Assembly: GCF_963676685.1 (NCBI RefSeq) | Contig: NC_092350.1 | Coordinates: 38,626,001 to 38,690,000 of the forward strand | Length of the DNA stretch: 64,000 nucleotides | Direction of reading: 5' to 3' | DNA from: Mytilus edulis | Lineage: Eukaryota | Part shown: positions 11,501 to 53,443 of the stretch, piece by piece | How the letters are laid out: each line of letters opens with the position of its first letter | Numbering within the stretch: the stretch's first letter is position 1 | The notes under the pieces: generated by a model | What the model was told of the DNA's origin: nothing | The model's input: only the letters and a program-made list of their open reading frames with translations | Databases searched by the model: none | Position numbers and translations under genes: made by a program

Positions 11501-13234
11501 ATGGATAAATTTTTGTGGATTTTGTTTATAGCTAATTTACAAATAAGTGGATTTTTGTCGAAACCGCGTTCTCGACCAAAAAGATTCACCGAGTTCTCTA
11601 TACAGTGCAGAGAGTATAATGATTTCACATGGGAATGTTTATGTCCTCAGAGAAACGTCATCATGACATTGAAAAATTCGGACGACGCCTATCTTGTATG
11701 TGGATTAGATTTCAAGCTCTCACTTCTGTCAAAAACACCTCATTATCAGGCAAATCAGCAAGAACTAGCCTCAGACTATGATAGGATGGTTCAACACGAG
11801 AGACCAACCAAGAACATCTGGAGTGATCATGAGTATCATCGGTCATCATCTTTTCAAAGGGAAGGATATGATCCACGCAAAGACCCAAAAGGTTATCAGA
11901 CGGGGAGTGATTGGAATGAAGTTGACCCGAACACGCACTTTAAACAAAATCCCCATGGAAATAAAGAAGACTACGATAGACCCAGGCCTGGTTACAACAA
12001 TATGGAACATCATAATCGTCAATCTCAACGGTACCCCGACGTAAATGATCGATATATAAATACTGAAGATGAGCAATTTCAAAGTAATGACGAAGAAAAT
12101 GGATACATTCAAAAACACAATGAAAAGTTTGGTAATGATGAATCATTTCAAAATAGAAATAATCTAAAGAAAAATAAGAATCCGCATTCAACAACGACAG
12201 ATCTATTTCAAAGAAATCCTTCGGCCACTATTACTACTACTACTACAGATGGTATGATTTCGCAAGAAAAACTTGATGAAAACCTACATGAAGTATTGTC
12301 CGGTTACCCGACTGACTCTAGTGAGATGAATGATACAAACACTGACAATGACGAGCAGGACATTTCAGTCGGTGCTGATTCTAAAACGGAAGATACGTCA
12401 CTGGAAAAAGAAGAAAATATTGACCAAGAGGTACCAGAACCTAATTCCGAGAATAATGTTAACGGGGAGAGACCGACTTATGAGCAAACACAAGAGACTT
12501 CCACGTCATTTATTTCCAAAAAGGAAATACCAGTCATACCCATCTATACCACCGTGCCAATTAAGTCTACATTGCTACAAAGTTCGAAAACTTTGGAAGA
12601 ACAAACCGTATCGAAACAGAATGTTAAAAGGAAAACCACAGTGCACAAAAATGACAAAACTGCAACAGTGAAACCTACAATTTATAAGAATGGACGTATT
12701 ATGACAGTTAAACCTGTAACTCAACAGAAAACACAAGAAGGAACAGAAATGCATGATACTAAACAGACTCATAGAACAGATGTGAATCAGGATACTAAGA
12801 GGCCGGAGATAACAATTCACAATGACAATAATGGTCGATCTATGTCGGGTATCGATACGAGATACAAAACTGACAAAACTGTTGCTACACAACAGAGAAT
12901 GAACTTCAATAGTGGCCCAATCGATAAAGGTGATTTCAGGGAAGACCCCGATACTGTTAAAAAAACAAATAATAGCACCAATGATAAGACAATACATGAT
13001 TCAAGGTACGCGGGTGACACAACTGGGATCAGTACTGGAGAAAATAAGAACGACACTTCCGGAGGATGTTATTTCTTTGGAAAAATGTTTTCAATTGGAC
13101 AGTTTTTGAAAATAAGTTCTGGTTGCATAATGATGTGTGTAAAGCAGAACATGATGAAACGAGACTGTACGAGAACACATACGTTACAGAATAAACCTGA
13201 CCCAAATAACGCCATTGCCAACTGGCATCCTTAA
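11501..13234 (+). CDS. Uncharacterised secreted 577-aa protein, single coding exon; Cys modules at both ends with a low-complexity core
   Basis: Long ORF with aaacaATG context, hydrophobic leader MDKFLWILFIANLQISGFLS and an RPKR furin-type site. It has a 4-Cys N-terminal module, Y/H/R/D/N-rich, acidic and K/T-rich blocks, and a C-terminal GCYFFGKMFSIG...CIMMC...C module. AATAAA at 13508-13513. Confidence 0.85.
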   Translation: MDKFLWILFIANLQISGFLSKPRSRPKRFTEFSIQCREYNDFTWECLCPQRNVIMTLKNSDDAYLVCGLDFKLSLLSKTPHYQANQQELASDYDRMVQHERPTKNIWSDHEYHRSSSFQREGYDPRKDPKGYQTGSDWNEVDPNTHFKQNPHGNKEDYDRPRPGYNNMEHHNRQSQRYPDVNDRYINTEDEQFQSNDEENGYIQKHNEKFGNDESFQNRNNLKKNKNPHSTTTDLFQRNPSATITTTTTDGMISQEKLDENLHEVLSGYPTDSSEMNDTNTDNDEQDISVGADSKTEDTSLEKEENIDQEVPEPNSENNVNGERPTYEQTQETSTSFISKKEIPVIPIYTTVPIKSTLLQSSKTLEEQTVSKQNVKRKTTVHKNDKTATVKPTIYKNGRIMTVKPVTQQKTQEGTEMHDTKQTHRTDVNQDTKRPEITIHNDNNGRSMSGIDTRYKTDKTVATQQRMNFNSGPIDKGDFREDPDTVKKTNNSTNDKTIHDSRYAGDTTGISTGENKNDTSGGCYFFGKMFSIGQFLKISSGCIMMCVKQNMMKRDCTRTHTLQNKPDPNNAIANWHP

Positions 13235-14533
13235 TGTCAAATACATGTACATCTAATGACAGGAATGTTCAATTCATTTTTAATTTATTCAAACCATGAT
13301 GATGTGAATATTATTTTTATCATAGTTGTACATTATATTATAAATGGTAATCAAAATGAGAATTATTATATAGTTCATAATTATACTTTTAAAATTTTGA
13401 TGAACAAATAACACTGTAACATTTTAAATCCATCACTGAGTATTTGAAGTAACCTTTGAGTATACAAGGGAAAAAAGCGCAATAAGATTTCAGACTTCTT
13501 TTTGTAAAATAAATACACATTTGTAACCCGTTAAAAACTTCAAATTATCGTCAGAGATGTAACGTTCATTGTTGAAGTCACGAACAATTTGTCAAGTATC
13601 GAGGTATTGACATATGGTTTTGATGCTTGATTATTGATAAAGACGGTATGTTGCCTTGTGCTCATCAGTTGTTATGTTATATGAATGATTTAGTTATTAT
13701 CTGTTTTATTTTCTCAAACAAACAAATAGGATTGGACACAGTTTTAACTGACATAAGATATCGAATACATCATAAAGATCATTGTAATTGTTATATTGAT
13801 GCTTAAATGCTCATCCCACAATATTTAATTTATTCTCAAATTCTATAACACATATATTTAAATTCATTCACGGCTATTATTATTGCATTGTATACCACGA
13901 AGCCCTGTTGCTCTCATTCAGATACGCAGTTGTGTTGGTTTTTTTTAAATGGTACGCGCTTGACTTTAAAACACAACTCTTTATCTCTATGAGAAAAACG
14001 CGAGGCACCGTATAGTATAATACCGATTTTAAATTAACTAGTACAATAGCAATAGTTCCTTATAGGTCTTTTTTTAACGATACTACAGACTGTGATATTC
14101 CATTGGTGTGTGTGGTTTTTTTTTTAATTTATAAGGATTTTTATATGTTAAACAATTATTGTAAGTTCGATCATACATACAAAACACAATAGTTGTGTAC
14201 TGTAATATTGTACAGAGGGAATATGAATTTGATGAAAAAATTCAGAACAAAACGACCGTGTTTCTGTTACATTAATTTAGACATCAACTTAACTCGTTGA
14301 CAAAAGTTTAGAATTTGATTTACCTTAACATAACTTAGGAATGTTTATCTAGAAATTAACTTTATAAGCAAAACCTATCAACACAACACAACCATGTATT
14401 TTAAGTAAATCTCGTTCGACAGTTTTAGTGGATTACTTTTTCGTTTAACGTATTGTGTGTTTTGCTTTCCCCACTGACATGGCTGTACAATGCAGGTAGA
14501 TTATCATTGAAATCGATACTTTCACTTGTACGA

Positions 14534-18860: not shown

Positions 18861-19306
18861 CTGACATTTTTCAAAGAAAAACTAACTTTTAGTTTGTAGT
18901 GATCAAAGTGACTGGTAAAATTCGTAGTTAATGCCGCTTTAAGTTATACTTAAATTCATAAACATGTTTCGTTTTGGGCATCCGGTATATGATTTGTATA
19001 GCAGGGTAGTATGAATAAACTGTCTGCTTGAGATAAAATTGTATTTAATTCAAAGATGTTTACACTCATGGATAATACATCTCCATTGTCCGACTGTTAT
19101 CTCTTCTTTTTTTTGTTTCATCGATGTAAACGCTAAAAAGAGAAATTGATTATGCATCAATTCAATGTGTTACATAACTATATAAACAGATCAACAATTA
19201 TCTGTACTTTGATCCTATCCTTACTGAAGATACACTACTTTACATTAATAATTCATATTAAGCAACCAATCTTATAAAATTTCTAGAATCAAGAATGGAA
19301 TCTGTA

Positions 19307-22221: not shown

Positions 22222-24127
22222 TCACGCTGAAACACTTACATCGCAAAAATCCGCCATATCACAGCTGCCTGATAAAATGCGTAACACACCATGGCAGCAA
22301 TATCTATACCCACATAGCTCGTATCGGGTACCAGCTAACGTGTAACTAGTAAAGGTATTGTGCGCGAGGTCAATAACAGTTGTATTATCAATCCTCTTCA
22401 TGCAATCAGCTCCCGGAACTTCAAAAGTTGGGGCTTCCGTAACTGGTTCGAAATCCACACCACTTGGGCATCGACTGAATCTTAACGACAAAAATTCTGC
22501 CTGCAAATTAGAGAAGTAGTATTTATACACTCAAAAGTACATATACAGAGAAAAACAGTTAATATGTATCAGCTCTTTATTTAAATTCAAACTGTATTTG
22601 GTATTTCTAAACTATGATCATTCTGATAGTCTATATTCAGAGGTCGATATTTAAGTTTATAAAATCAAGCTATATACGATCCTTTACGACAGATATTTAG
22701 CTAATCTGCCATGAATTCAATCTTCATATCTAATACAATTATCATATGATGTGTGTTACAACTCTAGATTCTACTGACGAGGAAATTTAACAAAAGGCTG
22801 AATTTAAAGTTCAGTCTAGGTGGCCGAGCAGTCTAGATCGATTGACACAGTGCAGGTGGTGTTGTCTCGATATGCCAATAGCCGAATCTCGGCGAGGGAA
22901 GAACAACCATTTGCTTCCGCAAATTTGCAAGTATAACATTGTTGTGCTGACATTAAAAATAGTTATGAATATAAAATGTGTTTTCAGCCGTGCATCACCT
23001 TCACTGGCGATCCAATCAATGGATAGGGTTAAATTACGTGTTTGTTGGACCCTTAACTCTCTCCTTAAATTTGTCAGTTCAAAATCAAAAAGTACCTAAC
23101 ATATTTAATATGTTTATTTATTCATGAAATGCACATTTATACCCCTGGGGGTTGAAGGCATATACAAACAATACAATACAATATACACAATGGAAAAATG
23201 AACATATTAAAAATCATATATAAATGATAAAACAGTAATATTTATGCAGGCGTTGTGTCCACTCCCCTCAGTGCAAATGACTTTTTAATGAACGGAACAG
23301 TAAGCTGCATAAAATATGACTACATGTATATTATCCCGGAGAAATGAACAACAAAAACTTCATTTCAACAATAACCAATATTGTCACATCAACGTTAACT
23401 GCAAATGGTGACCAAAGATACTGCAAGCTCAGAATATTGAACCTTAATAATGTCTTATTATATATACGATAAAAGGTTAGCTCAACATTTCTTATTCGAA
23501 TCTTGCATTGCTTTTGCTTACACACTTAAAATCTTTTAAGAAAAACGACAAAATGTAAAATAAAATGAATCGAATTTATGCACTCTTTCAAACATTCTCT
23601 TAAATTTACATATTTAAAAATCTAAGGAAAGAAAAATGCAAATTATGCCACACATAAAACAGCAATATATGACATAATTGAAACCCTGTAAATACCTTGT
23701 GCGTTTCATTGCAGACAATAACAAACGGATCGTGACGGTAATTGGTGTGGTTAAATGATATAATAGATTCAGCAGCAAAACCGTCCGGACAAGAATCACC
23801 GAGGTATAAATTTGTATCAAGTGGCGATCTTGTATGTCCTGGACCAAATTCAAGATTGAATGTCCCGAGTCCAAGGTCGTAAGGGTTCCCTCTTCTATCA
23901 AGGAAAAGTGGAGTTCCATCTTCATCACATACTAAAATACATTCTTCAGTCCACTTCAAAACCTGACTTGGAGTATCAGTGGAACATCTATCTTTGAAAT
24001 AATCATACAACGTTCGCCAGTCCTTTGAAAAGAATATCTCACTCAATCTACTACGTTTACGGATATCATGATCTTCAGAACAAATATAAAACGGTAGAAC
24101 AACTAAGATAATGTATAGTAAGTTCAT
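22222..24127 (-). CDS. Uncharacterised secreted Cys-rich protein, 236 aa; exons 24127-23696 and 22500-22222
   Basis: Signal-like MNLLYIILVVLPFYICS, then an acidic spacer EDHDI and RKR. Donor CACAAG|gtattt and acceptor ttgcag|GCAGAA join in phase 0. 12 Cys in the predicted mature part. Confidence 0.8.
22814..22960 (+). mobile_element. Probable tRNA-derived SINE relic
   Basis: A-box-like ggtggccgagcagtcta and degenerate B-box-like ccgaatctc; no cloverleaf. Confidence 0.45.
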
Positions 24128-28366: not shown

Positions 28367-31300
28367 TTATAGTAAGTGTCTATACTTTGGGTTAACATCC
28401 AGTTTACATGTGGGACATGGGAATTCCTTGGTCAGAAATGGTTCATACCTGCAAGAAAAATTAATATAACAGTATTTCTCAGACCATAAAAAAATATATG
28501 CACAAAACATACAAATTAAAACAAAAGGTTCATTAGTAAATTAAGGACTCATTTAATTTATGAAAATATTAATTCACCTAATACAGTTTTTTTGAAAATA
28601 TATCAATCATTGTATGTTTGAATTAAATTGGATGTTTCAGTTTTACACACAAAACGTATGTTAAAACATGATGAATCCTTTAAAAAAAGGAGGTTAATGA
28701 TCACTTTCTTTGCTAAAACCTTAAAAAAGGAGGTTAACGGTCACATTCTTTGCTTAACCAAACAAAAAGGTGAGCAAACACAAAATGAAATATTATATTC
28801 TTACCAATAATTTACTGCTAGGTTTCGTTTTTCTTTCCTGTTTGGAACAGATTGTACTTCATGCCACCAGAATGAGGGCATAAAAAGGACATCCCCTTCA
28901 TTTAATGTACAGTTCAGTGGATAAGTGCCAGCAAACTTTGGAAACCTCTGTAATAATATAAAACATGATGAAGGCATGTAAAATCCTCAGTCCTTATGAA
29001 ATATATCAGTTCCGTGGATTTACGATAAACTAGAGGCTCTCAAGAGCCTGTGTTGTTCACCTGTATTTACCAATGCTTTGTAAATCATGTGAAATGAAGC
29101 TTATTAGTATTAGATATTAGATATTATCAGATACTATAATGATATCTAAGATAATAACCAAAAATTTCCTTAAAATAACCAATTCAGGGACAGAAACCCA
29201 ACAACAGGTTGTCGAATTTATCTGAAAATTTGTGGGCAGATAGATTTTAATCTGATGAACATCAACCCCCCCCCCCCCCCCTTTGTCAGATTTGCTCTAA
29301 ATGCTTTGGTTTCAGAGATACACACCAAAATCTACATTTTATCACTATGTTCAATTTAGCCATGGTGGCCATCTTGCTTGGTTGGCCAGGTCACCGGACA
29401 CATTTTTAAAACTAGATACCCTAATGATGATTTCTTTAAAATTACCAATTTAGGGGCAGCAACCCAACAAAGGTTGTTGGATTTGTCTGAAAATTTGTGG
29501 GCAGATAGATCTTAATCTGATTAACAATATAATTAGCTGCCATATTTGCTCTAAATGCTTTAGTTTCAGAGATATGAGCCAAAAACTACATTTTACCCTA
29601 TGTTCTATTTTTAGCCATGTCAGCCATCTTGGTTGACAGGCTCGGTCATCAAACACATTTTTTAAACTACATACCCTAGTGATGATTGTGGCCAAGATAA
29701 GTTAAATTTAGTCCAGTAGTTTCAGAGAAGACTTTTGTAAAAGATTACAAAATTGTATAAAAATTGTTAATAAACAGCTACGCCATGAGCACATAATACG
29801 CCCGACGTCTTGTGTGGAAGTTTTATGCAATAATCATAAATAGTTTCTGAGAAAGTTTGAAGAAATTACCATTTATTGCTTTTGAGACACAGCGGGACAT
29901 GTGAAACCCCCCCCCCCCCCACCCTGTTTTTTTTTTTACAAATATCACTAAAATAAAATTTTGAATCAAACCAAAAAGTGTACAGACCTTTAGATTAATA
30001 TAACAAAGAAGTGTGTACAGTTTTAAGCAATAATCATAAATCGTTTTTGAGATACGGTGCGACATGTAAAAAACCCTCCCCCTTTTTTACAAAATACTCA
30101 ATAACTCAAAAATAAAACTTTGAATCATCACCAAAAAGTATACAGATATTAAGATTAATATAACTAAGAAGTGTGTAAAGTTTTAAGCAATAATCAAGAA
30201 TCGTTTTTGAGATACAGTGCGACATGTGAAAAAAAACACACCCCTGTTTTAGTTACAAAGTGCCGTAACTCAAAAACTTTAAATCTTATTTTCACCAAAA
30301 AGTATACAGATCATTTGACCATCATAAAAAACAACTATTTTAAGTTTCATGAAATTTAGATAAGTTGTTCTCAAGTTACGGTACGACATGTTTACGCCGG
30401 ACAGACGGACGGACGGACGGACAGACAGACGGACACCGGACATTTGTATACCATAATACGTCCCGTCAACATTTTGACGGCCGTATAAAAATTGACTATA
30501 AAGGGCAATAACTCCTTAAAGGGTCAACTGACAATTTTGGTCATGTTGACTTATTTGTAGATCTTACTTTGCTGAACAGTATTGCTGTTTACAGCTTATC
30601 TCTATCTATAATAATTATATTCAAGCTAATAACCAAAAACGGCAAATTTCCTTAAAATGACCAATTCTGGGGCAGCAACCCAATAACGGGTTGTCTGATT
30701 AATCTGAAAATTTCAGGGTAGATATATCTTGACCTGATTAACAATTTTACCCAGATTTGCTCTAAATGCTTTGGTTTCAGAGATATAAGTCAAAATCTAC
30801 ATTTAACCCCTTGGTTAGTTGGCCGGATTACCGGACACATTTTTTTAAACTAGATACCACAATGATGATTGTGGCCAAGTTTGGTTAAATTTGACCAAGT
30901 AGTTTCAGAGGAGAACATTTTTGTAAAAGTTTACGGATGACGGACGGACGACGGAAGCCAAGTGATGAGAAAAGCTCACTTTACCTTTCAGGTCAGGTGA
31001 GCTAAAAAATATCAAATCAAACATGTCACAATATTATAAAGTTGTAGAGTGAAAACATTTAAAAAAAAAGATAACCAACCCAGAAAGATTTGAAATCTTA
31101 ACAATATGCAGTACTTGGAATATTGGAAAAAAAAACCAATATTCTGATGTTGATCTAAAATTGGATATCATGTATATAAATAAGCCTTTGTTAAGAACCA
31201 AGTCAGGACCTTACGAGCAGTTGTTTCATATTGGAGACAATTTTCCAACAAATACAACTACTGAAAAATTTTGGGACCCTTTTATGCAGAAAATGGTTTG

Positions 31301-34300: not shown

Positions 34301-37300
34301 AACTGTAATTCATAGTGACTTGCTATGAACTATCTATTATAATAATATTCTTATAAAAACTTGTATCAAAAAAATTATAATTTAGCAATATTATACATGC
34401 AAGGACACAACTATTTCTGTCAAACCTTTGACAAATAGGGTTAACATGGGCTAAAATATAAATTCTTCCACCATTCTCTATATGCTCACCATTACTGATA
34501 TTCTGTTGTGTCTGGATTTACAAAGTACATAAAGGAAGAATATTGAAACCTGGATACATTTGGTCTGGGATTAAACAACTTTGTCTCCTTTTGGAGTTCA
34601 ATGGTTTTTGACCAGCAACTCTTACAGGGTAATAGTTTGTTTGCGATCATTATACATTAAAAAAAAGGACATTCCAACGATTACAAACTGAATTTAAAAG
34701 ATTATATTTTTTTTTAAAGATAATAAGATTTTTATTGGCTACAACTTATTTTTCCATATGAAGGTTAAGGGGAGATAAACATGATAAATAACTTTGGGCT
34801 TGAGTCATGGTTGTGAATGATTTTGTATCAAGTCTTCCTGCATTTTGAAAAACATTCATTGTGACAAGAAATCAGATATATTTAAGAGTGATATTATGAG
34901 TATTTAAAGAATAGGAATGCCAGACCTGCAATCAGATATAGACACATTCCAAAAGGATTTCTTTTTAAACGGACATTGTTGGGAAAAAGATTTTTGAAAT
35001 TTATTTAAGAAATCTATTAGCAAGAACCAAATATTTAAAACTATGATAGTCAGTCACATAAAATTAAAACAATGTGTTATTAATTCCATGTGTCTGAAGC
35101 ACTTTTCTGAATTTACCTCCATCTGGAATACTCATAGCTGATTATTGGAAAGCAAAGGATGTATAAGAACTGAAACAGATAGAGACCTATAGAAGTGATG
35201 AAAATAATAATACAGTACTGAAGATGAGAAGTAATAGAAAATATTGTGTGGATTATATAATATAATCCAATGAATAAAAATTTCTTATGTTTATATATAT
35301 ATAATATAATTTCCTTTTTCTTGTCCCAAGTTTTTAAGTAATAAGCCATGACAAATTAGTGAGTATTAGAAAAACATCTAATAATTTGATCAGGTTAGCT
35401 TACCTAGTATATTTAACCTATTATAGCTAAGACTTGTTAAAAGAAAGATACAGATTGCATTGACCTTTAAAAGCAAATGTATAGAGCTTTTAAAGTTACT
35501 ACAATTTCTTTATTATCAAAATGTAAATTGATTCAGTTATAAAACTTAACACTTCTAATCTACTAATTATGCATGTAATAAAAATTTTAAAAAATACTTA
35601 AAAGATAAGCTTTTAGACGTCACAGAAACCTACTTTGAAATCAACCTTCTTTATGTCAACAGGGGACATAACCATGGATGTACTCTGTGCCAACTGGTTC
35701 CTGGTAAACTGTTTAGTGGAATGGTTGTAGGCTAACATGGCCTCTGGAATGTGACTTTCATATAGTCTTGTATTGTCATGTGGTTCAAATAATAGAACTT
35801 GTTTTTGTCCACTTATCTAAAAATAAAGAAACAGATAATAAGTTTGGTATCTTGAAACCATTTAAAAAAATAATTTAAGTTATAATGCATGTGATGGCAG
35901 AGGACAATTCAAGTTAAGCTTTTCAACTAATTATATAATTAGTTAGTTTATAGATCCAGGAACAACTTTATTTAATTTTTATTTTAACAATACACTGTAC
36001 AAAAAATTAGACCCTTATTAAATACCAAAAATAATGCAAATAAGACAAAACCAAGACAATATCTGATCAACACATTGACTTTAAATTTTCTTTACACAAT
36101 TATATTTTCCAAGATTATTTCATTCCTTTAATGAGAGATATGCACTTTACTATATATATATATAAATGTATACATTTTAAAAAACTGTTGACCGATACAT
36201 GTTTTGTAAATCAGGCCACATTTTGAAGAACATGTGTCCATAAGACAGTATGCCTCACTATTACATTCTCATGTTCAGTGAATTGTCAAATCAAAAACCA
36301 TAAACCTAAACTTTTTACCAGATCAAGTACATGTACCTGCCAATTAATCAGTTTCAACCTTTATTTGACATATACATGTACATGCATTGTATTCTATAAA
36401 AATGTACTGCTTAATGAACTAGTGCATTAAGTTTCATTTACATTTTGTACATAAGGCATTACCAACTTCATGGTAAACTACATTGAACATTTATCTTAAA
36501 CATGTTAAATCAAATCTTAATACTAATACTGGATGGAAAGATAGAGGACAGACAAATGGATGGTGCAGAGACCAGAAAGAAAACATACATGTAGTGTCCC
36601 TATGACAACAATGTATGAATGTATATGGGGCATAAAACTTTTTTTATGGCCCTGAAACAAAGTTGTCGGTGCCATATAGTTTTATCCTTGTTGGTAATTC
36701 TGAAATTCTGTAATTCCGTCATTCCGCAACAAACCATTATACAGAGTTTTTTTCTAAACGCCTTCAGATATTGGGATGATTTTTGGCATCTGAGATAACC
36801 AAGATGAGTTACAGATCAAGTTTAAGTTTTGTTCCGCTCGGCTAATTTTTGCCGAAATTACGGGCTTTGGCCTCTGATAAATTGTTGAAAATCAGTGTTA
36901 AACAGACTTTTTATCTAAATGCTTTCAGATATTGGGCTGATTTTTGGTAAGTGAGTTACTCATGATGAGTTACAGATCAAGTTTAAGTTTTGTTCCGCTT
37001 TGTTAATTTTTGCCAAAATTGTTAAAAATCACATTTTTAATACAGACCTTTTTTCTATATGCACCTCCACATTTTTAGCTGATTTTTGATATGTGAGACT
37101 ACCATCATGTTTGTGTCCACATGTGTTATTGAAATTGCAGATTTTTCAAATTTTTCAGACTAGGCCATTAGCATGATTAGTGTCGCATTGACACATCTAG
37201 TTTTAAACCAAATTCATCAAGCATGTCAACATAATGGTCAAAGTACTTTATGTATATGTACATGCACATTTTGTCTTTTTATTAGAATTCGTCATCAGTA

Positions 37301-38643
37301 AAAAAAAAAAGTGTTGCTTGTCAGTTAGTAAACCTGTAACATTGTTTAATGTATTTTACTAAATAAAAAAAATCTTTTCATATAAAAGCTTTGTATTCAA
37401 TTTCTAAATAACTCTTTACCTGGCATAAAAAATTATCAAATGGATCAAAATGTAGTTTTCCTAGTGTGTTCCCATCACTAAACCAAATGTTTAAATGTTG
37501 TCTGTTTAAAACATCAATAATGAAAGGCATCTCCCTTATATCATCTTCTAACTCTGGTAAATGGTTAGGTATTGATGAATACTCTAAATAAGCAGAGACA
37601 TTATTTACTACTCCATCAGAAACTTTTTCTATTAGATCAACCAGTTCAGAAAATTTCATACTAAGAGTGGCTGGACGGACAACAACCAAGTCAGAAAACT
37701 CAAGTTGTTTTTGTACAGCTTCTGGAATTCTAAATGTTTTATAGTTGTCCCACAGCTCTGAGGATTCAACTCCTTCAAATTCTCCTCTTGGTGTTAGTTT
37801 AATGTGAGCTTTGTTATCTCCATATTCTTCACGCAAGAATTTATTTGACCATTTAGTCATAGCAGGCCATGATTCCATAGCTCCTTCAATAATAACTGGT
37901 CTTGATAATTTGAGGTAGTCATGAAAAAAATCATCTTTTGACGGGACTTTTATTCGATCACATTTTGGAATCTCATGTTGTTTTTGGTTGATAGTCTTCT
38001 GAAATGATTTTTGATGATCATGTTTATCATCGCAGATTATATTTTCTTTCTTATTTGTATTTTTGTCACATGATTCATCAACAACTTGCTCTTGAAACAC
38101 ATAATTCGATGTAACGTATGAAATGCTTGATACCGAAAACAAATTCTTCAGAATTTCTTCTCGATGAAGACCTTCATAAGATACACTACCTTTTACTGTT
38201 CGGTACGTACCACAATAGTTATTGATGAAATCTACTAATAAATTGATTGACTTTGAACCTTTGTACACATTCACCTTCGGCATCAAAGGTTTTGCTGGAA
38301 GTAAACATGTTCTATCTACCTTTGATTTTGGAAATAAAACTATATCATTCACTGAAGGATGTTCTCGTTTTATTGTCTGAAGCGTTTGATTATTTTGCCA
38401 CCTAAAGGATTTCAAATTGATGTACCCAAATTGAACAAATGGTTCTGATTGAAAAGAAACTTCAGACAACGACCTCAATAATTGTCCTGTGTCCCCCGGG
38501 AGGAACACGTCATCACTCTCAACAAGAACTGCCAGTAAGCACGAATTTTCTAATAAATGAATTATTTCTCTTGGCTGAAATAGTTTTAGAGCTGAAGATA
38601 TGTAAAAGAGAATTGTGAAAATGTATATGCAATTCGTTGTCAT
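28367..38643 (-). CDS. JmjC (Cupin_8) 2-oxoglutarate/Fe(II) oxygenase with signal peptide and N-terminal thioredoxin-like domain, 543 aa; exons 38643-37420, 35816-35634, 28947-28805, 28448-28367
   Basis: Motifs FFHDYLKLSRPVIIEGAMESWPAMTKW, NIWFSDGNTLGKLHFDPFDNFLCQISGQKQVLLF, SPVD..DFKRFPKF and LNEGDVLFMPSFWWHEVQS..NLAVNYWY give an intact HxD...H triad and 2OG-binding Lys. GT-AG introns with phases 0,0,2; total 1632 nt. JMJD5/JMJD7/TYW5-type fold; exact orthology unresolved. Confidence 0.9.
29027..31007 (+). mobile_element. Second, more diverged copy of the 19307-21622 HINE family, interrupted by a nested HINE at 29772-30490
   Basis: Same 5' aactagaggctct..agagcctgtg and 3' agctcac..ggtgagct. 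The host motif aaattgttaa/aaattgactataaaggg is split by an element ending atacgtcccgtca..tgacggccgtataaaa. Confidence 0.8.
31487..31640 (-). mobile_element. hAT-type transposase C-terminal (dimerisation domain) remnant
   Basis: LLKTYVRLTTNNDGLASLALLHIHRDSCVNIDKVIKKFVSAKTRRADF matches the LKTYLRSTM..ERL..LALL.IHR motif of hAT/ZMYM1-like transposases. Confidence 0.8.
33425..33725. repeat. Dispersed repeat; second copy ~49240-49440
   Basis: Shared gtacca(a/g)tttttctgcaccagat(g/a)cgcatttcgacaa and tacattccttaat. Confidence 0.65.
36639..37203 (-). mobile_element. HINE-like element in reverse orientation within JmjC intron 1
   Basis: Terminal hairpin tatggc..gccata, internal duplicated gatgagttacagatcaagtttaagttttgttccgct, and 5' end aactagatgtgtc on the minus strand. 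Confidence 0.55.
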
Positions 38644-40597: not shown

Positions 40598-40783
40598 GGG
40601 ATCCGAGGGGTAGGTATTTGGTTGGGATCCGGGGGTATGTATTTGGTTGGGATCCGGGTGTAGGTAATTGGTTGGGATCTGGGAAGAGGTATTTGGTTGG
40701 GATCCGGGGGTACCGTAGGTATTTGGTAGGGATCCGGGGGTAGGTATTGGGTTGGGATCCGGGGGTAGGTATTTGGTTGGGAT
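40598..40783. repeat. 25-bp G-rich minisatellite, ~7.5 copies
   Basis: Unit taggtatttggttgggatccggggg. Confidence 0.92.
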
Positions 40784-41960: not shown

Positions 41961-44900
41961 ATGCTGAATTTATTTTGTACCATCCTTTTGATAGTACCTC
42001 ACATACTAAAAGGTAAGGTGAACAATACACCATTGTGATAGAGCTGAAAATAGAAACTATTTGTCTTATTCAAAATGAAATACGCTGTTATATATATGTA
42101 TGTATTTACAACCTTTCTGTTAAAGTAAAAGTTAAAGTTAATGTTTCAAAAAAGTCAGCCGACAAGACCAAAACTCTAAACATTGCTTGATTTCATTATA
42201 ATTAAACCAGAAGAAAATTTCGCTTTTTAAGATGTAATTAAGCTGCGTAAAATTTAAAGCGACATGCCGCCTTTCCAGGTGCTTGCAAGACAGTAAATTT
42301 TGAACAACTCTACGTGAAGTAACTTATTAAATTGAAAATAAAAATTATCTCGCTGATTTTATTAATTTTACTTATTCAACTACAATGTTAATGTATGTGT
42401 GCAGTAATCCCCCACCCCTTGAAATAAACATTGATTCACTTGCGACATAAAGCTTCTCATACAGCTAGGTTTATCGATTAAGAAGGCTCACTTCTCTTTT
42501 TACGTTAAATTTTCCAATTAAATTTAGTTTGCAGTAAATGCTTAAATTGTTCAAGAAGAAAAAAAACCTATTCATTGTCGCGGTTGTAGGTACTTCTTTA
42601 TACGTTTCACTTGTATAGTCAATATTGGAAAGGTGATAAAAGTCCCAAAAGCGTTATAAAAAATTAAACTGTTACATTTTGTATTCATAAAATAAAATAA
42701 ATTGTTTAGACAATATATTCAAAGGAATGGTCTTGGTTCTAAATGCACGGAACGTTGCTGTTTAATTTAATGTTTTTTGTCATGTTCGAACAACCCCTGC
42801 AAATAAAATTTGTAAATTTGTAACTGAAAAACAAAACCAAACTTCACTTCGACAGAATAGTTGATGTAATTTTTGTTTACCTAGAATTTCACAATATTTA
42901 TTGAAATTATAGATTTTAGTCACCTTTTACCAGTTCTTTGGGTTTAGGACATATTTACTCTATAGATATAACTTCAAAGTATACAAATGAAAGTATAAAG
43001 ATTCCAAGACGTTTTGAAAGTGTATAATATTGGAACACAAACTTGCGAAAAAATTGTAGATTATATCATTTTAAACTTGACAAAATGAAATGGGATAGGA
43101 TAACAAAGCGTCATACTAGTATAACAATTCATTTTAAAAAGGTATGTGAGAACATACGAGGCTTGTGGGACGCCACACAGTGACATTCAAACAATAGTTT
43201 TAGTATACAAATCCTAACATCTATATTTATCATCTTGTTTTGTTATATGACTTACTTATAGACAGTTATTGTATTATATATGCAATAAATTATATTTAGA
43301 TTCACTAATATTATAATTTAACACATGACTGCTGATGTTAACATTGTTCATTGTTTTAAATAAATTATAAATTACTAAATCAATGCTACTCGACGTACTG
43401 TATTTCTAGGGCATGTTTGAACTTTCAATGTACTTTAACCCATTTAAAGAAAATTGTATTTATCTTAAAGATGCAAAACATGTTTTGTAAAAGTAGAAAC
43501 GTCATTTATTCTCTCGTATGTTCAAATTGTAAAGACTTTTTTTTACATGTAATTGATAGACCAAAATGAACTGCGGACTACTGGTCCGAGACCACAATTA
43601 TTTCGTAGTGCATTTCTTTTAGAACATAAATGAAAATAAAAAAAATCCCACCTGCGCTTTCTCAAAGAAACTTTTACAGTGTGTTGTACTACTTTTGGGA
43701 CAAATTATATCAAAATTATAGAAAACGTCATCGCCTCAAACTCAAAATATGGACAATTTTATCTTTAGGGCGTCTTGAAATCTTTTGACAGCTTCCGAAG
43801 TGCTATTTTTCAACCTTTTTTACTTGGACCAAATTACTACTTTCCTTTAAAATTCTGGACCCAAACTTTTTTACAGTGTAATTTCATCCCCCCTACTTGC
43901 AATTTGAGGCATAAAACATGGAGAAATAAATTTGGAAGGGGTATAAAAATTAATGGCAAGTAACCCACTGTCAACACTAGGGACTATATATATACAACGA
44001 AAATCAAGGGACGACAATGGTGGTCTCGGACCTACTGAATGATTGTCAATAGTAGCACACCAACCTTGAAATTTAACTATCATCATAAAATTTTGATTCC
44101 TTGAATATCATTTTCGTTTAATATTAAGTTTTTTTTTAAATTAGAGAATGACATTAATTGTATATATTTGGTGAAAATTATGATGCTTATGATATTGGAT
44201 TTGAGCTGCATGGTATTATAATTTTAATAGATCAAAAGGTTCATTCTGGAATCGTGGATTTTTACTCTAGAACTATAATTTCTAGCAGTGTATTTCCCTT
44301 TTCGAGCAGTTAACCTGCTTCTCGGCAATGAAGTTTAATACAGAGTCAACGCTAGGCGGATTTTAATCCCTTTTGATTTAAAGATTCTATTTGGTTTGTG
44401 TTAATGAAAAAATTATTGATAGCCTTTTGTCTTAAATCACCAAATTCTATTTATACAGCTGGAAATCTTTGTTTATTAATGTTACACATAGCTATATACT
44501 AGTAACTATCTCTCAACATTGTTCTGCACTGCAGCGCATCAGGATTTATACCAGTACACCTGATAGCAGCCCATTTGTAATTAAGAATCAGACTATAGCT
44601 TTTCGAAGTAAGTTTCAAGAAAGTCATATTCTATTATGGTGATAGGTGGATATTTTATATGAAAATTATAAAATTTATATTTCAGGTCAAGAAAACATTA
44701 AAGATGGTAAGATAACAGGTTCGTTACAGATTACATGCCCAAAAATATCTTGTGAACTTCATCACTTTCCACAGGAACACTGCAAAGTTCAGACATTCAT
44801 TATGTACCATGGTGTTAAGTGTCCGAGTTGTGTAGAGGATATTTGTCATGGTTCACAAGTGGTGGCTGATTCACTGATTGGAGATGTCACTCAAGTAAAC

Positions 44901-46449
44901 ATCAACACAGTAGACAACACGAATGCTAACACAGGAAAACTTCAAAAGAAATGGAATAAACCCAGTTATATCAATAGATTAGGTTCTATATTTGGAAAGA
45001 ATCCTAGTGTTGAAAGTCTGAGACATTCTTTGGAGCCAGGAAATGAAAGAACAAGAAATAATCAGCAAATGCAAGGGCAAAGCTTAGTGCCTGTGAATTC
45101 AAAAGGTATATGTTTTGTAAAAAAGATAAAACCTACGTGCATTTCAATTTAAAAAATTTTGTTTTGTAAATTATCGAACCATAAATGCAACAGAAATATT
45201 CTCATTGGTAAAAATAAATATAAGGTATATGTTAAATATTAGGCTGAACAGATACGTTACATTGATCTATGAGGGCCCTCATGGGGTTTTTCATTATGTG
45301 ATTACTTGGCCGTTTTTTTAATGATTATTTGATTATTAAGCCAAATATTTCATGATTATTTGATTACCTAGGACTGTATTTTTAGTTTATGATTATTTGA
45401 TTACTAAAGATAAGCAAATATTTAATGATTATGTGATTATATTGGCAAAAAAATGGTGATTATGTGATTACTAGGACCCCCCATGAGGGGCCTCATCTAT
45501 TGTCGGTTTTGATGTTATTATAATCTCTTTGAATAATTTTTTTATTCGTTTCTCTTTACTTCCAGGTATGGACACGTTACAACCAAAGCCACACATTAAA
45601 TGTCCGGAAATAGAATGTCATCATCACCATCAGCCCAAAGCTCACTGCATGGTTGATTCGTACTTTATATACCATGATGAAAAGTGTAAAGGATGTATCG
45701 AGGATATTTGCCTCGGTTCACATATTGTGGATGAGAACTTGATAGGTAAAAATAAAAGTCAAAATTTATCAAAACCTGAAACACTACATCTTACGAATCA
45801 AGGAGTTGGAAACAGAATGACATCTGGAAATTGGAAATCAGGAAACTCACAGCCTTCATTGATAGAAAGACACAGGCATGGCAGTAATGGACAAACACAC
45901 CAAGAACCACATCATACTAACCATCATCAAGAAGACAGAATATCTGGAAATTGGAGATCAGGACACTCCCAGCCTCTAGTGTCTGAGAGACATATTCAAA
46001 ATCGAAACGGACAAATAAATCAGGAACATTTGATCTCCAACCAAGGAACTAGAGGCAGAATATTGTCCAGTGATTGGAGATCACGAAACCCTCAGCCTCT
46101 TGTGACAGAGAGAACTGTCCAAAACAGTAATGGACAATTAGATTTGCCTGGAAATCCATTTTTCAGCGGAGGAGCACATACTAACTTTAGAAATAAACTC
46201 CTTGGTGTACAAACAAATGAACCTGTCAATTCAAGACAAGGATTTGGTAAAAACTCGAATCCTAATTCATCTGTAAATATTCCAGCAAGTTTACCAAACG
46301 GACAAAATACAAAAAATAAGGAAGAAAGCATAGTTGTTGTAGACCAAAATCAATCTACCTTCACCAGAAAGGATCGGGGGATAGGGAGATTTAGAGGCAA
46401 GGGGAGATCATATCTACAAAGCTTGTTTCACCCGGCATTTACTGGTTAA
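41961..46449 (+). CDS. Secreted protein A, 451 aa, with two 6-Cys/His-rich modules and an N/Q/R/H-rich repetitive tail; exons 41961-42012, 44686-45105, 45566-46449
   Basis: Leader exon MLNLFCTILLIVPHILK-G|gtaagg (phase 1) joins ttcag|GTCAAGAA; exon 2 ends AAAG|gtatat; exon 3 starts ttccag|GTATG. Exons 2 and 3 each encode C-x4-C-x9-C-x12-C-x2-C-x4-C. Confidence 0.85.
43583..44032. mobile_element. MITE with 13-bp TIRs and a 4-bp TSD (TACT) in intron 1 of gene A
   Basis: tact|ggtccgagaccac ... gtggtctcggacc|tact. Confidence 0.85.
45271..45494. mobile_element. MITE with a 6-bp TSD (ATCTAT) in intron 2 of gene A
   Basis: atctat|gagggccctcatgggg ... ccccatgaggggcctc|atctat; internal gattatttgatta repeats. 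Confidence 0.88.
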
Positions 46450-48048
46450 TATTTATAATGCTCATTATGTAGTTGTATTTCTACTTTGCGTAGAAGTGTA
46501 ACTATTATATTTAGATCGCTGAAAATCCAATTCGTTCTCATGTATTACACAGATTTTATTATTTATGATGTATATGTCAAAAATTGGGGTCATTTTTTAT
46601 TCGACTACTTAAAAAAATTATTAACCATTAAATTTTGTAAATTGAATCGAAATATACCATATATATTTAATTGGTTGCAATAGGAGGCCCGAATGTATAA
46701 ATATTATTGGATGTAATATATCCAAGCCATAATTATTCATGCCAACTATATTATAAACTCTTTACAAAGCTTATTAACGAGTTGAATGCTATCAATATCA
46801 AAACAAACCTTGTCTTTTATATGGATATTATTCATTTAGATTTAGTTTAAACAATATTTTATTTTCAAAAAGTGCACGAAATATAATTATACAATATAAA
46901 TACAGGGATTCGGAAACAAGAAAAACTTATATAAATCCGTCTCCCTTAAGATTTGGTTTCAGGTAACCTTTTTTTGTTTGTTTAACCTAGATGTTCAAGT
47001 CAATGTCGTTCGGTTTAAGTTACATTGTTGGTGATATTATATTTTCATATTTGTTTAATGTGTCTTCCAATTTTTAAACACATGTCTGTAGCACTTACAT
47101 TATAGGAACATAACAGGCTTAATTTTTCAGAACAGTGTAATATTTATGTTTTAAATATTAGACATTCTTGCTGGCATTTAACAGTTTGCTTCTTGCTTCT
47201 TGCTTCCCATTTACTCGCAATTTTGATATCTTTTTTGGTCATTGACTAGAGATGAATCCTGTCTTTTTTTTCATTTTGAGAGATTAGAGTGAGGGTAACT
47301 TAATAAGGTTACACAAAAAGAGTTCATTCAGATTATTTATAAGCAATAGCTGAAGTCTATGCCTACTATATATTAGAACTTATTATTTGTTGTATTTTTG
47401 CGAGCACTACCAAAATGAAGGTTCGTTTTAAGTGATGTCTGAGTATTGCAGTAACAATCAAAAGCAAGTTAAGTATACTTTTTTGTGACTTGCATTGCTG
47501 TCATTATGCGGCACACTTTCATGTTTGTGTGAGACATTTCTTGAGTACTCTTGTTAAGATGTAAATTTAATGTATTTTGATAAAGACTGTCCGCTGTTAA
47601 AATTCGGACTTAGGAGTGAATAGAGCAGTCAAACAACAAATCTTATGCAAACATCTATTTGTTATAATAATAGAAACTATCAGTATTCTTATTACTACAC
47701 TAAAACATCAACGAAACAGACAAAATGAGGTCGAAACTCGAGCCAAAAAGGCATTTTTTTTTATCCATGTTACCATAAAAGCAGGTATGCCGGATAACTC
47801 AGAACGTTAGAAAAACCAAGAACGCCTCAAACGTACGTAAATGCTGGTGCATGGTAGTAACACTTGCTATAACAGCTGACATGTACAACATGTTTTAAGA
47901 AAAATATTAACCGCATAATTCTTTTCACATACTTAATATTATACTTGGAAAATTGCAAAAAACAAACAAATTGTACAGCAATCTAATGAGGAGTTGATAC
48001 AAGACATATGTTAAGACATGTGATTCATACCATACATTTTTTACTTAA

Positions 48049-48413: not shown

Positions 48414-49590
48414 TTAAATATATATTCTTCAGGTCTTGACTCCAACCACATCATATTTGAATGGTGGTTTTGTTTTCTCTTAATCGATTTATAACTTGTG
48501 AACACTGTTACTGTTGTCTTTATATAAACCAAAATTCAGCTGCGGTACTTACTATCTCTCTTACTAAGAAAGATATAGTACATTCAACAACAAAGGAATT
48601 TATCATTTAACCAAAAAAGAACCAACCAGTGTTGCTAAATTGTGAAATGATATATCAGAAAATATGTTATTCATGTTCAGCTGAGAATTGATTCCAGAAC
48701 ATACTGCCAATTTAATTCCGGTATTATATGAACAAATTTGCGATACGATTTAGTTAAGAGCTGACCGAAATTCTAGAATTGACCGAAAGGCAGGGCGTTG
48801 CATTATATACATGTTAACGTTGATTTGAATAAAATATAAACACAGAAAATGTGTATATAAGCAAATATACTTTTGAAGAAATTCGGTAAATTAACGATCA
48901 TTGTTCACTTGCATTCATATACATTTCTGTTTACACGCACATTTTTCATCTGAACGTATTGATGCATACATATATATGTTGGCATACATTGACACATGTG
49001 TGCATTTGAGCAAGAAATGAATGAATTGTTGTCTATATTTTTGCCTCAACTATTATTGTTGTAATGTCTCACTGCTTATCAAAAACACCCTTTTATCCTT
49101 TTAACAAAGATTGTAAAAATGTAAAATTGATTCTGAATTATGAATTCGCTTTAACATTTATCACCATGAACTGAGAGCTTGAAGCAAATCCTTCTTAATT
49201 TTCGAATCTTCACACTTCAACGGTCATTCAACAATAACAAAAACTGTACCAGTTTTTCTGCACCAGATACGCATTTCGACAATCAATGTCCCTTCAAAGA
49301 TGATCGGTGCTAAAATATTTAAAAATCCAAAGCTTATTAAAAGGGAGAAGAGAAATAACCCAAAATGGAAAACAAATGTGTAGCCAAAACAGGCCAAATA
49401 AGACGACCTTGGCACGAGAGAGAGGTACATTCCTTAATCTTAAAGTTACAGAAAATCGGGGTTTTCAGGTACAATAAATTAGTACGAATTAAGAATAATA
49501 ATTGACACTAGCAGTACAATGCATTTTGATATGTATTTAAATACTAATCCTGGTTTGCAATCAATGGCGTGAAGGATATGATATTGCAAC

Positions 49591-50007
49591 TTGATCGGAT
49601 GTGTCTTGAATATCTGCCTATATAATTTTTCTGGCGATAATGATGTAAAGCATGTTCACAACAAACCTGATTACAAATTTCTGGAAGCCATGAAAATGCT
49701 CCAAAAATATCATACAGTACCAGATTGTGTTAGTATAGATAAGTATTTAGTAAACAGGAGGTTAGGGATTGATATATCTGAAAACGAATCACTACGTATG
49801 TGCACTTGCATGTATGAAGCTGGATTCCAAATATTAGAAATTTCTGATTTACAATTTCTGAGAGAAACCCGAAGTCGCTGTCATGCATGGTCATTATGTG
49901 CCAGAATAGAAAAGAAGTTGAGGATCGATGATCTGAAACCACTTAACAATGTAAAGCTTGTTCACTTGAAGCCTGACGAAAAAATATCGGACAGGTCTGA
50001 TCTGTAG
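49591..50007 (+). pseudogene. Possible orphan exon or decayed coding fragment (138 codons)
   Basis: Protein-like composition. No ATG at the ORF start (TTG); upstream frames are broken by stops and shifts; no family recognised. Confidence 0.25.
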
Positions 50008-51910: not shown

Positions 51911-53443
51911 GTCATCAATTCATCAGCAATGAAAAGATAACAGGTTCGTTACAGATTACATGCCCAGAAATATCTTGCGAACTTCATCATTTTCCACAAG
52001 AACACTGCAAAGTCCAGACATTCTTTATGTACCATGGTGCATCGTGCCAGAGTTGTGTAGAGGACATTTGTCATGGTTCACAAGTGGTGCCTGCTTCCCT
52101 AATTGGGAATACTTCTCAAGTGCAAAACCTCCAAAAAACAGACAATTCAAATGAAGTCACTCCAAACCAAAAACAGACATTGCGTGTAGTCAATTATATC
52201 AATAAATTATGGACTTTGTTTGGAAACAATCTGAGAAAAGCGTTTAAATCAGGATATTCAAGGACGAGACGTAACCAACGAATGCAAGGATACGGAATAG
52301 TGCCTGTTTATGCAAAAGGTATGTTTTAAAATACAAATACGTCTATAGTTATAAAAATAGAAAAGAGCATACCTGTATTTTTAATTGAAACCCCTTTCCT
52401 ATTAAATTGTTTGCATTGTTTAACTTTAAAAGTATACCATATACATGTAAGCTTAACAGAAAAAAAAAGATCGATATTTTGTTTGTTTTGAAATGAATGT
52501 TTTTGAATGTACTTTTAATTCAGTTTTTAATTAAATTGCAGGTATAAACACCTTAAAACCAAAGTTACATATTAAATGTCCAGAAATAGAATGCCATAAT
52601 CATCACCAGCCTAAAGCTCACTGCATGGTTCATTCGTACTTTATTTACCATGGAAGAAAGTGTAACGGATGTATAGAGGATATATGTCTTGGTTCTCATA
52701 CTGTGGTCGATTTCTTAATAGGCAAAAATGATAGTAAATATGCACCAAGTCCAGAAAAACTACCTCTAAGAGATCAGGGAATCGGAAACAGAGTGATAGC
52801 TGGAGAATGGAAACCAGGACATTCTCAGCTTCCATTGCTAGAGAATCACAAACATAGCAGTAATGAACAAATAACTCAAGAATCTCATCAAGAATTTACA
52901 GACAGAATATATGGTAATTGGAGACCAGGACCCTCTCAACCTCCATTGCATGTAATACACATCCAGAATATAAATAGAAAAATAAATCCTGAAACCATTT
53001 TCCCCGACAAACACCAGGAGGCTAGAGGTAGACTTTTCTCTGGTGTTTGGAGATCAAGAAACCCCCAGCCTATTGTGGTGGAGATAGGTGTTCAAAAGAG
53101 TAAAGAACAATTAGAATGGTCAAGAAATCCAAATTTCAACAGAATTGAAAATAACATTAGAAATATTGATTCACAGTGGAATCACAAAAACAAGAATGGT
53201 GTACAAACGAATGCACATATCAATTCAAGACATAACTCCGGCAGGAATTGGAATCCAAATTCATTTACAAAAGTGCAAACAACTTTACAAAATAAAAAAA
53301 CTTCTAAAACCAATAAAGAAGGCAATATTGGTGTGGAACAAAAACAATCGTCTTTAACCAGAAAAGATGGGGCAATATGGCAGATTAGAGCCAAAGGCAA
53401 ATCATTTCTACAAAGCTTGTTTCATCCAGCATTCTTTAGTTAA
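51911..53443 (+). CDS. Secreted protein B, tandem paralog of A (5'-partial: leader exon not located); exons 51911-52318 and 52542-53443
   Basis: Both exons are open with intact phase-1 splice sites. Each Cys module is 32/37 identical to its counterpart in A. Shared C-terminus LQSLFHPAF, alignable 3' UTR, AATAAA at 53615-53620. Confidence 0.8.

What the first reader, a model, noticed from the sequence alone, without database searches (positions are those of the whole stretch)
11501..53443. Candidate enzyme-plus-substrates cluster: four orphan secreted Cys/low-complexity proteins around a secretory-pathway JmjC hydroxylase
Seen: every confidently reconstructed gene from 11.5 to 53.4 kb has a signal-peptide-like leader or is the paralog of one that does. 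Four are unrecognisable, exon-poor, Cys-modular proteins, three of them with K/R/N/H/Q-rich disordered blocks. The fifth, in the middle and divergent from gene A (ATGs 3.3 kb apart), is a catalytically intact JmjC enzyme with its own leader. Known: JmjC-only enzymes hydroxylate Lys (JMJD7), Arg (JMJD5) and Asn/His/Asp (FIH), and mussel secreted adhesive proteins carry unusual hydroxylations such as 4-hydroxyarginine in mfp-3. Inference: this could be a co-expressed locus for a secreted biomaterial (byssus, periostracum, shell or mucus) with its own tailoring enzyme.
Basis: partly seen in the sequence, partly recalled or inferred. Interest (0 to 1): 0.75.

Follow-up and report, generated by a model that had tools for sequence, protein, structure and literature searches.

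The report
Ancient secretory JmjC among mussel orphans
A mussel gene for an unstudied, animal-wide enzyme predicted to add hydroxyl groups to proteins inside the secretion pathway sits among young genes for predicted secreted proteins; the neighbourhood is likely chance rather than a dedicated enzyme-plus-substrate kit, so the enzyme family itself is the part worth testing.

Summary
The genes are real (Mytilus, contig C7). The JmjC gene (4 exons, 543 aa) has a leader, an intact H398-D400-H498 triad and starts 3,318 bp from gene A. But it is no local invention: orthologues with the same leader occur from corals to lungfish, its catalytic half is about 63% identical across them, one copy was found in this genome, and the mussel branch is not long. 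Its predicted structure is an ERp29/PDI-type thioredoxin domain plus a JMJD7-like fold, distinct from the genome's own JMJD7. The neighbours are young: A/A' and G2 were found only in Mytilus; A's six-cysteine module recurs at four other places on C7; G1 has a relative 11 kb away across a cytosolic LIM gene. A' has no leader exon and may be an internal cassette of A; G1's tail is acidic; Lys/Arg are neither enriched nor specially conserved. In Tegillarca the orthologue is merged with a different neighbour. Its closest relatives hydroxylate C-3, not the C-4 of mfp-3 arginine. Co-expression was not measured. Verdict: dedicated cluster unlikely (about 0.1); an uncharacterised ancient secretory oxygenase family is the real lead.

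The parts
11501..13234 (+). G1: single-exon gene, 577 aa; leader, RPKR site, N-terminal 4-Cys module, acidic T/N/D/E-rich spacer, C-terminal 4-Cys module
   Evidence: ORF and composition; homologues P0177-P0180 keep both modules; Mytilus database models in cluster
23696..24127 (-). G2 exon 1 (leader + 144 codons)
   Evidence: database models P0156, P0206
22240..22500 (-). G2 exon 2 (Cys-rich)
   Evidence: tblastn of P0206; own-genome search finds only this locus
19118..19132 (-). G2 exon 3, last four codons and stop (from the database model's ending)
   Evidence: not tested with RNA
37420..38643 (-). JmjC exon 1: leader, ERp29/PDI-like thioredoxin-fold domain (about residues 17-153), variable linker, JmjC start with H398 and D400
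35634..35816 (-). JmjC exon 2
   Evidence: joint to exon 1 in 3 of 4 runs
28805..28947 (-). JmjC exon 3 with H498
   Evidence: gives 543 aa as P0001
28367..28448 (-). JmjC exon 4, conserved C-terminal CxxC and xHLL end, stop
41961..42012 (+). Gene A exon 1 (leader), head-to-head with JmjC, ATGs 3,318 bp apart
44686..45105 (+). Gene A exon 2: six-Cys module 1 plus spacer
45566..46449 (+). Gene A exon 3: six-Cys module 2, N/S/G/Q-rich tail with three W-[RK]-S repeats; the stop codon overlaps a possible splice donor
51911..52318 (+). A' exon 2 copy (module 1'); no leader exon found upstream
52542..53443 (+). A' exon 3 copy (module 2' and tail); modules under purifying selection against A (dN/dS 0.11)

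Best explanation
The JmjC gene encodes a member of an ancient, animal-wide family (leader + ERp29-like thioredoxin domain + JMJD7-like catalytic domain) that likely works in the ER lumen as an Fe(II)/2-oxoglutarate hydroxylase of a conserved secretory client, and the young Cys-module genes likely came to lie around it by ordinary local gene birth and duplication, not as its dedicated substrates. Shown: gene structures, triad, family range, fold match of the predicted model, dispersed relatives of A. Inferred: lumenal location; that the thioredoxin domain, lacking a CxxC, holds the client as non-catalytic PDI-type domains do (recalled); that the reaction is C-3 hydroxylation of a Lys or Arg side chain, by likeness to JMJD7 and JMJD5; that A, A', G1 and G2 are extracellular matrix or mucus-type proteins whose small disulfide modules bind partners and whose tails are spacers. 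A' is most likely a duplicated two-exon cassette that is spliced behind A's own leader or behind A's exon 3.
For: Family range: 315 hits of 3,765 candidates; named hits among the 120 listed span bivalves, gastropods, a chiton, annelids, echinoderms, a hemichordate, amphioxus, lungfish and cnidarians. In 41 of those 120 aligned, 38 have a hydrophobic leader and 3 lack the N-terminus; sequons at N348, N439, N481 are kept in 24, 21 and 33 of 41; median identity to the mussel protein is 63% in residues 226-543 and 82% in the last 34. One match in the own genome; JMJD5, canonical JMJD7 and FIH-like exons lie elsewhere. Quick tree of 42 family rows: mussel path 0.63 against 0.75 (Pinctada) and 0.76 (Tegillarca) from their shared, weakly supported node. 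Model pLDDT 89; best match JMJD7 Z 27.9, residues 14-153 match Wind Z 11.2 (rmsd 2.5, 109 aligned) and ERp29 Z 10.1 (rmsd 3.2, 115 aligned); CxxC in that domain in 1 of 41. Neighbours young: A 6 hits of 249 candidates, all five named ones Mytilus; G2 2 of 11; G1 5 hits in 1.84 billion representatives. A's module recurs at four other C7 regions (3.04-3.09, 35.87-35.88, 42.97, 75.86-75.93 Mb), none at a Cupin_8 match. The Tegillarca model P0022 joins a TPP-enzyme gene to the orthologue; in this genome that gene is 15 Mb away. Lys/Arg in A's tail are kept in 20 of 29 positions against 183 of 239 overall (M. edulis vs M. californianus). None of the 4 JmjC-like rows in the Perna viridis foot-enriched table has this family's full-length alignment footprint.
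Against: All three confident neighbours do carry leaders and the order is kept across Mytilus. JmjC and A are head-to-head and spliced contigs of both occur in all 4 laid runs, though the runs were chosen with a query holding both. An old enzyme can be co-opted without duplication. The homologue searches for A and G2 are word-seeded and length-limited, so older relatives may be missed; three unnamed G1 homologues at 22-33% identity show that family is older than one genus. Synteny outside Mytilus rests on one merged gene model. One Perna row (pvir_s136446g229, query 4-135) could be a fragment of the orthologue. Two of JMJD7's four 2OG C5 ligands are replaced (G395, L406), so the reaction need not be JMJD7-like. 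No activity, location or tissue data exist here.
Confidence: 0.7

Rival explanations
1. One reading: a co-expressed biomaterial locus in which the JmjC enzyme is the dedicated hydroxylase of A, A', G1 and G2.
For: Leaders on JmjC, A, G1, G2; head-to-head JmjC/A; order kept in Mytilus; three W-[RK]-S/P repeats in each of A and A' could be target motifs.
Against: Enzyme conserved in cnidarians to lungfish where the neighbours were not found; A-module relatives at four unlinked places; different neighbour in Tegillarca; cytosolic LIM gene splits the G1 pair; contig ends of JmjC and A lie at least 3.0 kb apart, wider than the under-1-kb spacing of shared promoters (recalled); K/R neither enriched nor conserved, Tyr 0.4-0.8% in A/A' tails.
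Confidence: 0.1
2. The enzyme is a general lumenal hydroxylase with relaxed specificity: it has a conserved client but also modifies basic, disordered secreted proteins, possibly including A or mussel foot proteins; linkage is incidental.
For: Secretory location and a client-binding type domain; some JmjC hydroxylases are promiscuous (PMC11603075, passages); a JmjC enzyme can make C-4 hydroxyarginine (KDM4E, same paper); altered 2OG pocket.
Against: Closest solved relatives act at C-3 (JMJD5 3R-Arg, JMJD7 3S-Lys) while mussel plaque arginine is C-4; other JmjC-like genes, with a footprint that fits a short leader plus JmjC, are the foot-enriched ones in Perna; high conservation fits a fixed client.
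Confidence: 0.13
3. The enzyme acts on a non-protein substrate (glycan, lipid or small metabolite in the secretory lumen) or has no catalytic role.
For: G395 and L406 replace JMJD7's Thr172 and Tyr183 in 41 of 41; TYW5, a tRNA-base hydroxylase, is the third-best fold match.
Against: Triad, N404 and K413 are kept (41, 41, 40, 41, 40 of 41); a PDI-type domain points to protein clients (inference).
Confidence: 0.07

Closest known systems
JMJD7 (3S)-lysyl hydroxylase (PDB 7yxg, 4qu2, 5nfo)
   Same: Best sequence match (E 1.9e-29) and fold match (Z 27.9, 26% identity); HxD...H triad, C1-binding Asn and C5-binding Lys in register.
   Different: Leader and thioredoxin-fold domain added; Thr172 and Tyr183 equivalents are Gly and Leu; the genome has a separate canonical JMJD7 at C7:51.67 Mb.
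JMJD5/KDM8 (3R)-arginyl hydroxylase
   Same: Fold Z 25.0, 28% identity.
   Different: Separate gene on C5; about 60 extra columns of insert in this family; no leader in the C5 protein as read.
'Secreted JMJD5-like family' of Iyer et al. 2010 (PMC2938197, passages seen; supplement not available)
   Same: Metazoan, secreted, conserved cysteines, predicted to hydroxylate cell-surface proteins.
   Different: Defined by an N-terminal GHxxxhG motif, lineage expansions and loss in vertebrates; motif absent in 41 of 41 aligned proteins (two loose matches among all 120), one copy here, lungfish orthologue present; the word thioredoxin does not occur in that paper's main text.
JMJD8 (PMC5684140, passages seen)
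   Same: JmjC-only protein with a signal peptide in the ER lumen.
   Different: JMJD8 has His in place of the triad Asp; this family keeps Asp400 in 41 of 41 and adds a thioredoxin fold.
ERp29/Wind, PDI non-catalytic domains
   Same: Fold of residues 14-153 in the model (Z 10-11), no CxxC.
   Different: Here fused to an oxygenase; sequence identity only 8-14%.
Mussel foot proteins (mfp-3) and other DOPA adhesives
   Same: Secreted, partly basic, low-complexity.
   Different: A/A' tails hold under 1% Tyr, G1's 3.6% and acidic; no peptide hit in one shell-proteome supplement.

Membership tests
Fe(II)/2OG JmjC oxygenases (Cupin_8) | Cupin_8/JmjC domain over cut-off | tested here: met
   PF13621 211 bits against cut-off 27.4
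Fe(II)/2OG JmjC oxygenases (Cupin_8) | HxD...H metal triad | tested here: met
   H398, D400, H498 in 41, 41, 40 of 41
Fe(II)/2OG JmjC oxygenases (Cupin_8) | 2OG-dependent hydroxylation | not testable with these tools
   needs an enzyme assay
JMJD7 orthologues | Four-residue 2OG C5 site (Lys190, Tyr123, Thr172, Tyr183 in fly JMJD7) | tested here: not met
   K413 and probably Y352 kept; G395 and L406 in 41 of 41 (mapped by offset from the triad His)
JMJD7 orthologues | Is the genome's orthologue of JMJD7 | tested here: not met
   exons reading like JMJD7 lie at C7:51.67 Mb (compared)
Secreted JMJD5-like family (Iyer 2010) | N-terminal GHxxxhG motif | tested here: not met
   0 of 41 aligned; 2 loose matches in 120, position not checked
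Secreted JMJD5-like family (Iyer 2010) | Secreted, conserved cysteines, metazoan | tested here: met
Secreted JMJD5-like family (Iyer 2010) | Listed among that paper's three subfamilies | not testable with these tools
   supplement could not be read
JMJD8 | His in place of the triad Asp | tested here: not met
Enzyme-plus-substrate gene cluster | Linkage kept beyond close relatives | tested here: inconclusive
   kept in Mytilus; one merged Tegillarca model points to another neighbour
Enzyme-plus-substrate gene cluster | Enzyme and substrates share their taxonomic range | tested here: not met
Enzyme-plus-substrate gene cluster | Co-expression in one tissue | not testable with these tools
   only contigs of runs without tissue labels
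Enzyme-plus-substrate gene cluster | Neighbours are modified by the enzyme | not testable with these tools
   needs MS and assay
DOPA-type mussel adhesive proteins | High Tyr content with Lys/Arg | tested here: not met
   Tyr 0.4%, 0.8%, 3.6% in the A, A', G1 blocks
Known small disulfide folds (for A's six-Cys module) | Pfam or PDB match | tested here: inconclusive
   no Pfam over cut-off, no PDB sequence hit, no fold match for a 43-residue model

The most novel reading that the evidence does not exclude
This thioredoxin-JmjC family is the missing secretory-pathway arginine/lysine hydroxylase of animals; mussels have co-opted it, under shared control with gene A, to hydroxylate basic W-[RK]-S repeats and foot proteins, making it the source of mfp-3 4-hydroxyarginine.
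Probability: 0.08. Interest if true: 0.8.

Novelty: new variant of a known kind. Interest (0 to 1): 0.4.

Why it matters
The cluster idea, if true, would be a rare animal case of a tailoring enzyme linked to its substrates, but the evidence leans against it. What remains is useful: a conserved JmjC oxygenase family with a leader and an ER-type thioredoxin domain, present from corals to lungfish and mislabelled in databases as JMJD7, JMJD5 or 'jmjC-E-like'. I found no description of it in the searches run (one relevant supplement unreadable). It predicts an unknown, conserved hydroxylation of secreted or cell-surface proteins, and it is one of a short list of candidates that can be assayed directly for the unassigned mussel hydroxyarginine.

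Tried and rejected
RNA: no listed run is on record as RNA; A' exons had no cover in the 4 laid runs of 24 listed, which is no evidence on expression; no reads were laid on G1 or G2, so their expression is open. Unnamed Logan proteins for A' and G2 start inside an exon or run through an intron and so look genomic. ORF 49582-50007 is an open frame over a high-copy decayed repeat (179 matches, mostly with stops), not a sixth gene. The RidA-A-A' model CAG2209238 is not matched here: no RidA within 40 kb either side. ESM Atlas: no usable hit for A's module; G2 best 0.76 to an Fn1_2 cluster, below the bar. A likeness of G2 to chitin-binding peritrophin domains and of G1's end to fibronectin type I or VWC modules is by eye and recalled; Pfam gave nothing over cut-off. 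No fold or sequence match for A's module; absence shows no novelty. Literature: motif search 'crgcd' with 'mussel' 0 papers; six peptides absent from PMC4517812 supplements; PMC12607631 uses other gene ids, so its blank is uninformative; PMC13198611 main text has no JmjC term, its supplement and those of PMC2938197 and PMC8194122 were unreadable. One search was swamped by its second term. Earlier scan notes by place, sequence and words gave nothing on this locus. The careful tree did not finish; the quick one is quoted and its root, set by a long outgroup, is not used. No complex prediction was run, as enzyme-substrate pairs are a poor use of it.
Full report
Setting. The window is G000:C7:38626001-38690000. 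Exon 1 of the JmjC gene matches database protein P0001, labelled 'jmjC domain-containing protein E-like [Mytilus edulis]', at 100%.

Gene models. G1 is one exon, 11501-13234, 577 aa. G2 has three exons on the minus strand; the third comes from database model P0206. JmjC has four exons giving 543 aa. A has three exons giving 451 aa. In four runs guessed to be RNA (4 of 24 listed), contigs join JmjC exons 1-2 in 3 of 4, A exons 1-2 in 3 of 4, and A exons 2-3 in 4 of 4. The ATGs of JmjC and A are 3,318 bp apart; the nearest contig ends are 38717 and 41761, which are not start sites. A' is a 72-74% identical copy of A's exons 2 and 3 only. No copy of the leader exon lies between A and A', and database models P0125, P0171 and P0126 begin without a leader. 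A's last codons read G|GT TAA, so the stop overlaps a possible donor in the same phase as the acceptor of A', and two GenBank models (P0169, P0170) join A to A' there. The modules of A and A' show dN/dS 0.11 over 86 codons against 0.65 over the other 338, at dS about 0.53, so A' has been under selection. My reading (inference) is a duplicated cassette used with A's leader; no RNA junction shows it.

The enzyme. The search with exon 1 gave 315 proteins of 3,765 candidates; named hits among the 120 listed cover bivalves, gastropods, a chiton, annelids, echinoderms, a hemichordate, amphioxus, a lungfish and cnidarians. I aligned 41 of the 120, chosen for length and spread. Of these 38 have a hydrophobic leader and 3 lack the N-terminus; three glycosylation sequons are kept in 21-33 of 41; eight cysteines in 38-41; median identity to the mussel protein is 32% in residues 19-170, 63% in 226-543 and 82% in the last 34 residues (medians leave out the two Mytilus rows and 0-4 short rows). 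The model (pLDDT 89) matches JMJD7 best (Z 27.9), then JMJD5, TYW5 and FIH, and its N-terminal domain matches Wind (Z 11.2, rmsd 2.5, 109 aligned), PDI-family domains and ERp29 (Z 10.1, rmsd 3.2, 115 aligned); only 1 of 41 has a CxxC there. Against fly JMJD7 (PMC9001643, passages) the triad, Asn181 and Lys190 are kept, while Thr172 and Tyr183 are Gly395 and Leu406 in 41 of 41. The genome holds one match to exon 1 (a lower bound), and separate JMJD5-, JMJD7- and FIH-like exons. In a quick tree of 42 family rows the mussel path is no longer than those of Pinctada and Tegillarca. So this is an old, conserved family and not canonical JMJD7. It is also not JMJD8, whose triad Asp is His (PMC5684140, passages). 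Iyer et al. (PMC2938197, passages) name a secreted JMJD5-like family with a GHxxxhG motif, expansions and loss in vertebrates; the motif is absent from all 41, but I could not see that paper's supplement, so overlap is not excluded.

The neighbours. A gave 6 hits of 249 candidates, the five named ones all Mytilus; G2 2 of 11; both searches are word-seeded and length-limited. G1 gave 5 hits among 1.84 billion representatives: one near-identical, three unnamed at 22-33% with both Cys modules kept, one repetitive and probably spurious. A's module, C-x3/4-C-x8/9-C-x12-C-x2-C-x4-C, recurs with weak E-values but full cysteine register at four other C7 regions, several followed by Q/N/R/G-rich tails; none coincides with a Cupin_8 match. 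A G1-like single-exon gene lies just left of the window (pairwise E 9e-6), beyond a cytosolic CRP/LIM-type gene. The tails are rich in N, Q, H, S and G; K+R is 12-15% against 10.4% in ten JmjC proteins, G1's block has net charge -19, Tyr is under 1% in A and A'. Between M. edulis and M. californianus Lys/Arg in A's tail are kept at 20 of 29, all residues at 183 of 239.

Linkage. Consecutive accessions put A', A, JmjC and G2 together in M. coruscus, and JmjC beside A in M. trossulus, M. galloprovincialis and nearly so in M. californianus: expected within a genus. Outside it I had one pointer: the Tegillarca model P0022 joins a TPP-enzyme gene to the orthologue, and that gene lies 15 Mb away on C7 here. 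Earlier scan notes, which I did not check, list five other secreted-protein clusters or genes among the 8 shown of 15 fitting notes in this genome; they suggest such neighbourhoods are common.

The hydroxyarginine link. JMJD5 makes 3R-hydroxyarginine and JMJD7 3S-hydroxylysine; mussel plaque arginine is C-4 hydroxylated; KDM4E can do C-4 (PMC11603075, passages). In the Perna viridis table of foot-enriched genes (PMC7971044, part of section 9 and supplement 4 searched, 1,325 rows) four rows are JmjC-like. This family aligns to JMJD5 from query residue 155-288 over about 295-335 columns in 7 of 8 proteins tried (own JMJD5 as stand-in); the Perna JMJD5-like row aligns from residue 38 over 227 columns, which fits a shorter secreted JmjC. 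One low-level row could be a fragment of the orthologue. Exons of another JmjC type that I take, from recall, to be Iyer's family occur at three places here.

Verdict. Observation partly confirmed; interpretation partly supported. Best explanation (0.7): an ancient lumenal hydroxylase with a conserved client, surrounded by young secreted-protein genes by chance. Dedicated cluster 0.1, promiscuous lumenal enzyme 0.13, non-protein substrate or no catalysis 0.07. Activity, location and co-expression are untested. Searches for a description of the family (listings seen) found none.

Noticed in passing
L038:9314-9967 (+), G000:C7:38625314-38625967, just left of the window: Single-exon 217-aa gene with a leader and both G1-type Cys modules; a distant G1 relative (E 9e-6).
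   Followed up: partly
window about 4290-7300 (-): CRP/LIM-type gene with Gly-rich linker; LIM match E 4e-4, just under cut-off for the one exon scanned. It separates the two G1-family genes.
   Followed up: partly
window 46443-46451 and 53438-53446: Both A and A' end with a stop codon overlapping a GT, a possible switch between a short form and a spliced long form.
   Followed up: partly
L008-L021 (C7 3.04-3.09, 35.87-35.88, 42.97, 75.86-75.93 Mb): An unnamed six-cysteine module family; every match lay on C7, several in tandem arrays. It folds with pLDDT 86 and has no Pfam or PDB match.
   Followed up: partly
L027 (C4:92.50 Mb), also C10:15.66 Mb and C12:47.19 Mb: Exons of a second JmjC type, possibly the secreted JMJD5-like family of Iyer et al.; with Perna pvir_s00189g394 (foot 29.6, gill 18.7 TPM) a candidate for the byssal arginine hydroxylase.
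   Followed up: partly
window 28367-28448 (-): The JmjC family ends in a conserved CxxC and xHLL (RHLL 16, FHLL 4, YHLL 3 of 41); not a standard KDEL signal, role unknown.
   Followed up: no
window 49582-50007 (+): 141-codon open frame over a high-copy decayed repeat with a period near 168 bp.
   Followed up: yes
window 19.3-21.6 kb, 29.0-31.0 kb, 15.9-16.9 kb, 2.4-3.8 kb: Repeat elements with internal tandem units ending in GAC/GGAC microsatellites; several copies inside G2 and JmjC introns.
   Followed up: no
window 40598-40783: 7.2 copies of a 25-bp G-rich unit between the JmjC and A starts.
   Followed up: no
P0154, P0064/P0082: The JmjC family is duplicated in an oyster (two-domain merged model) and in amphioxus, unlike in this genome.
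   Followed up: no
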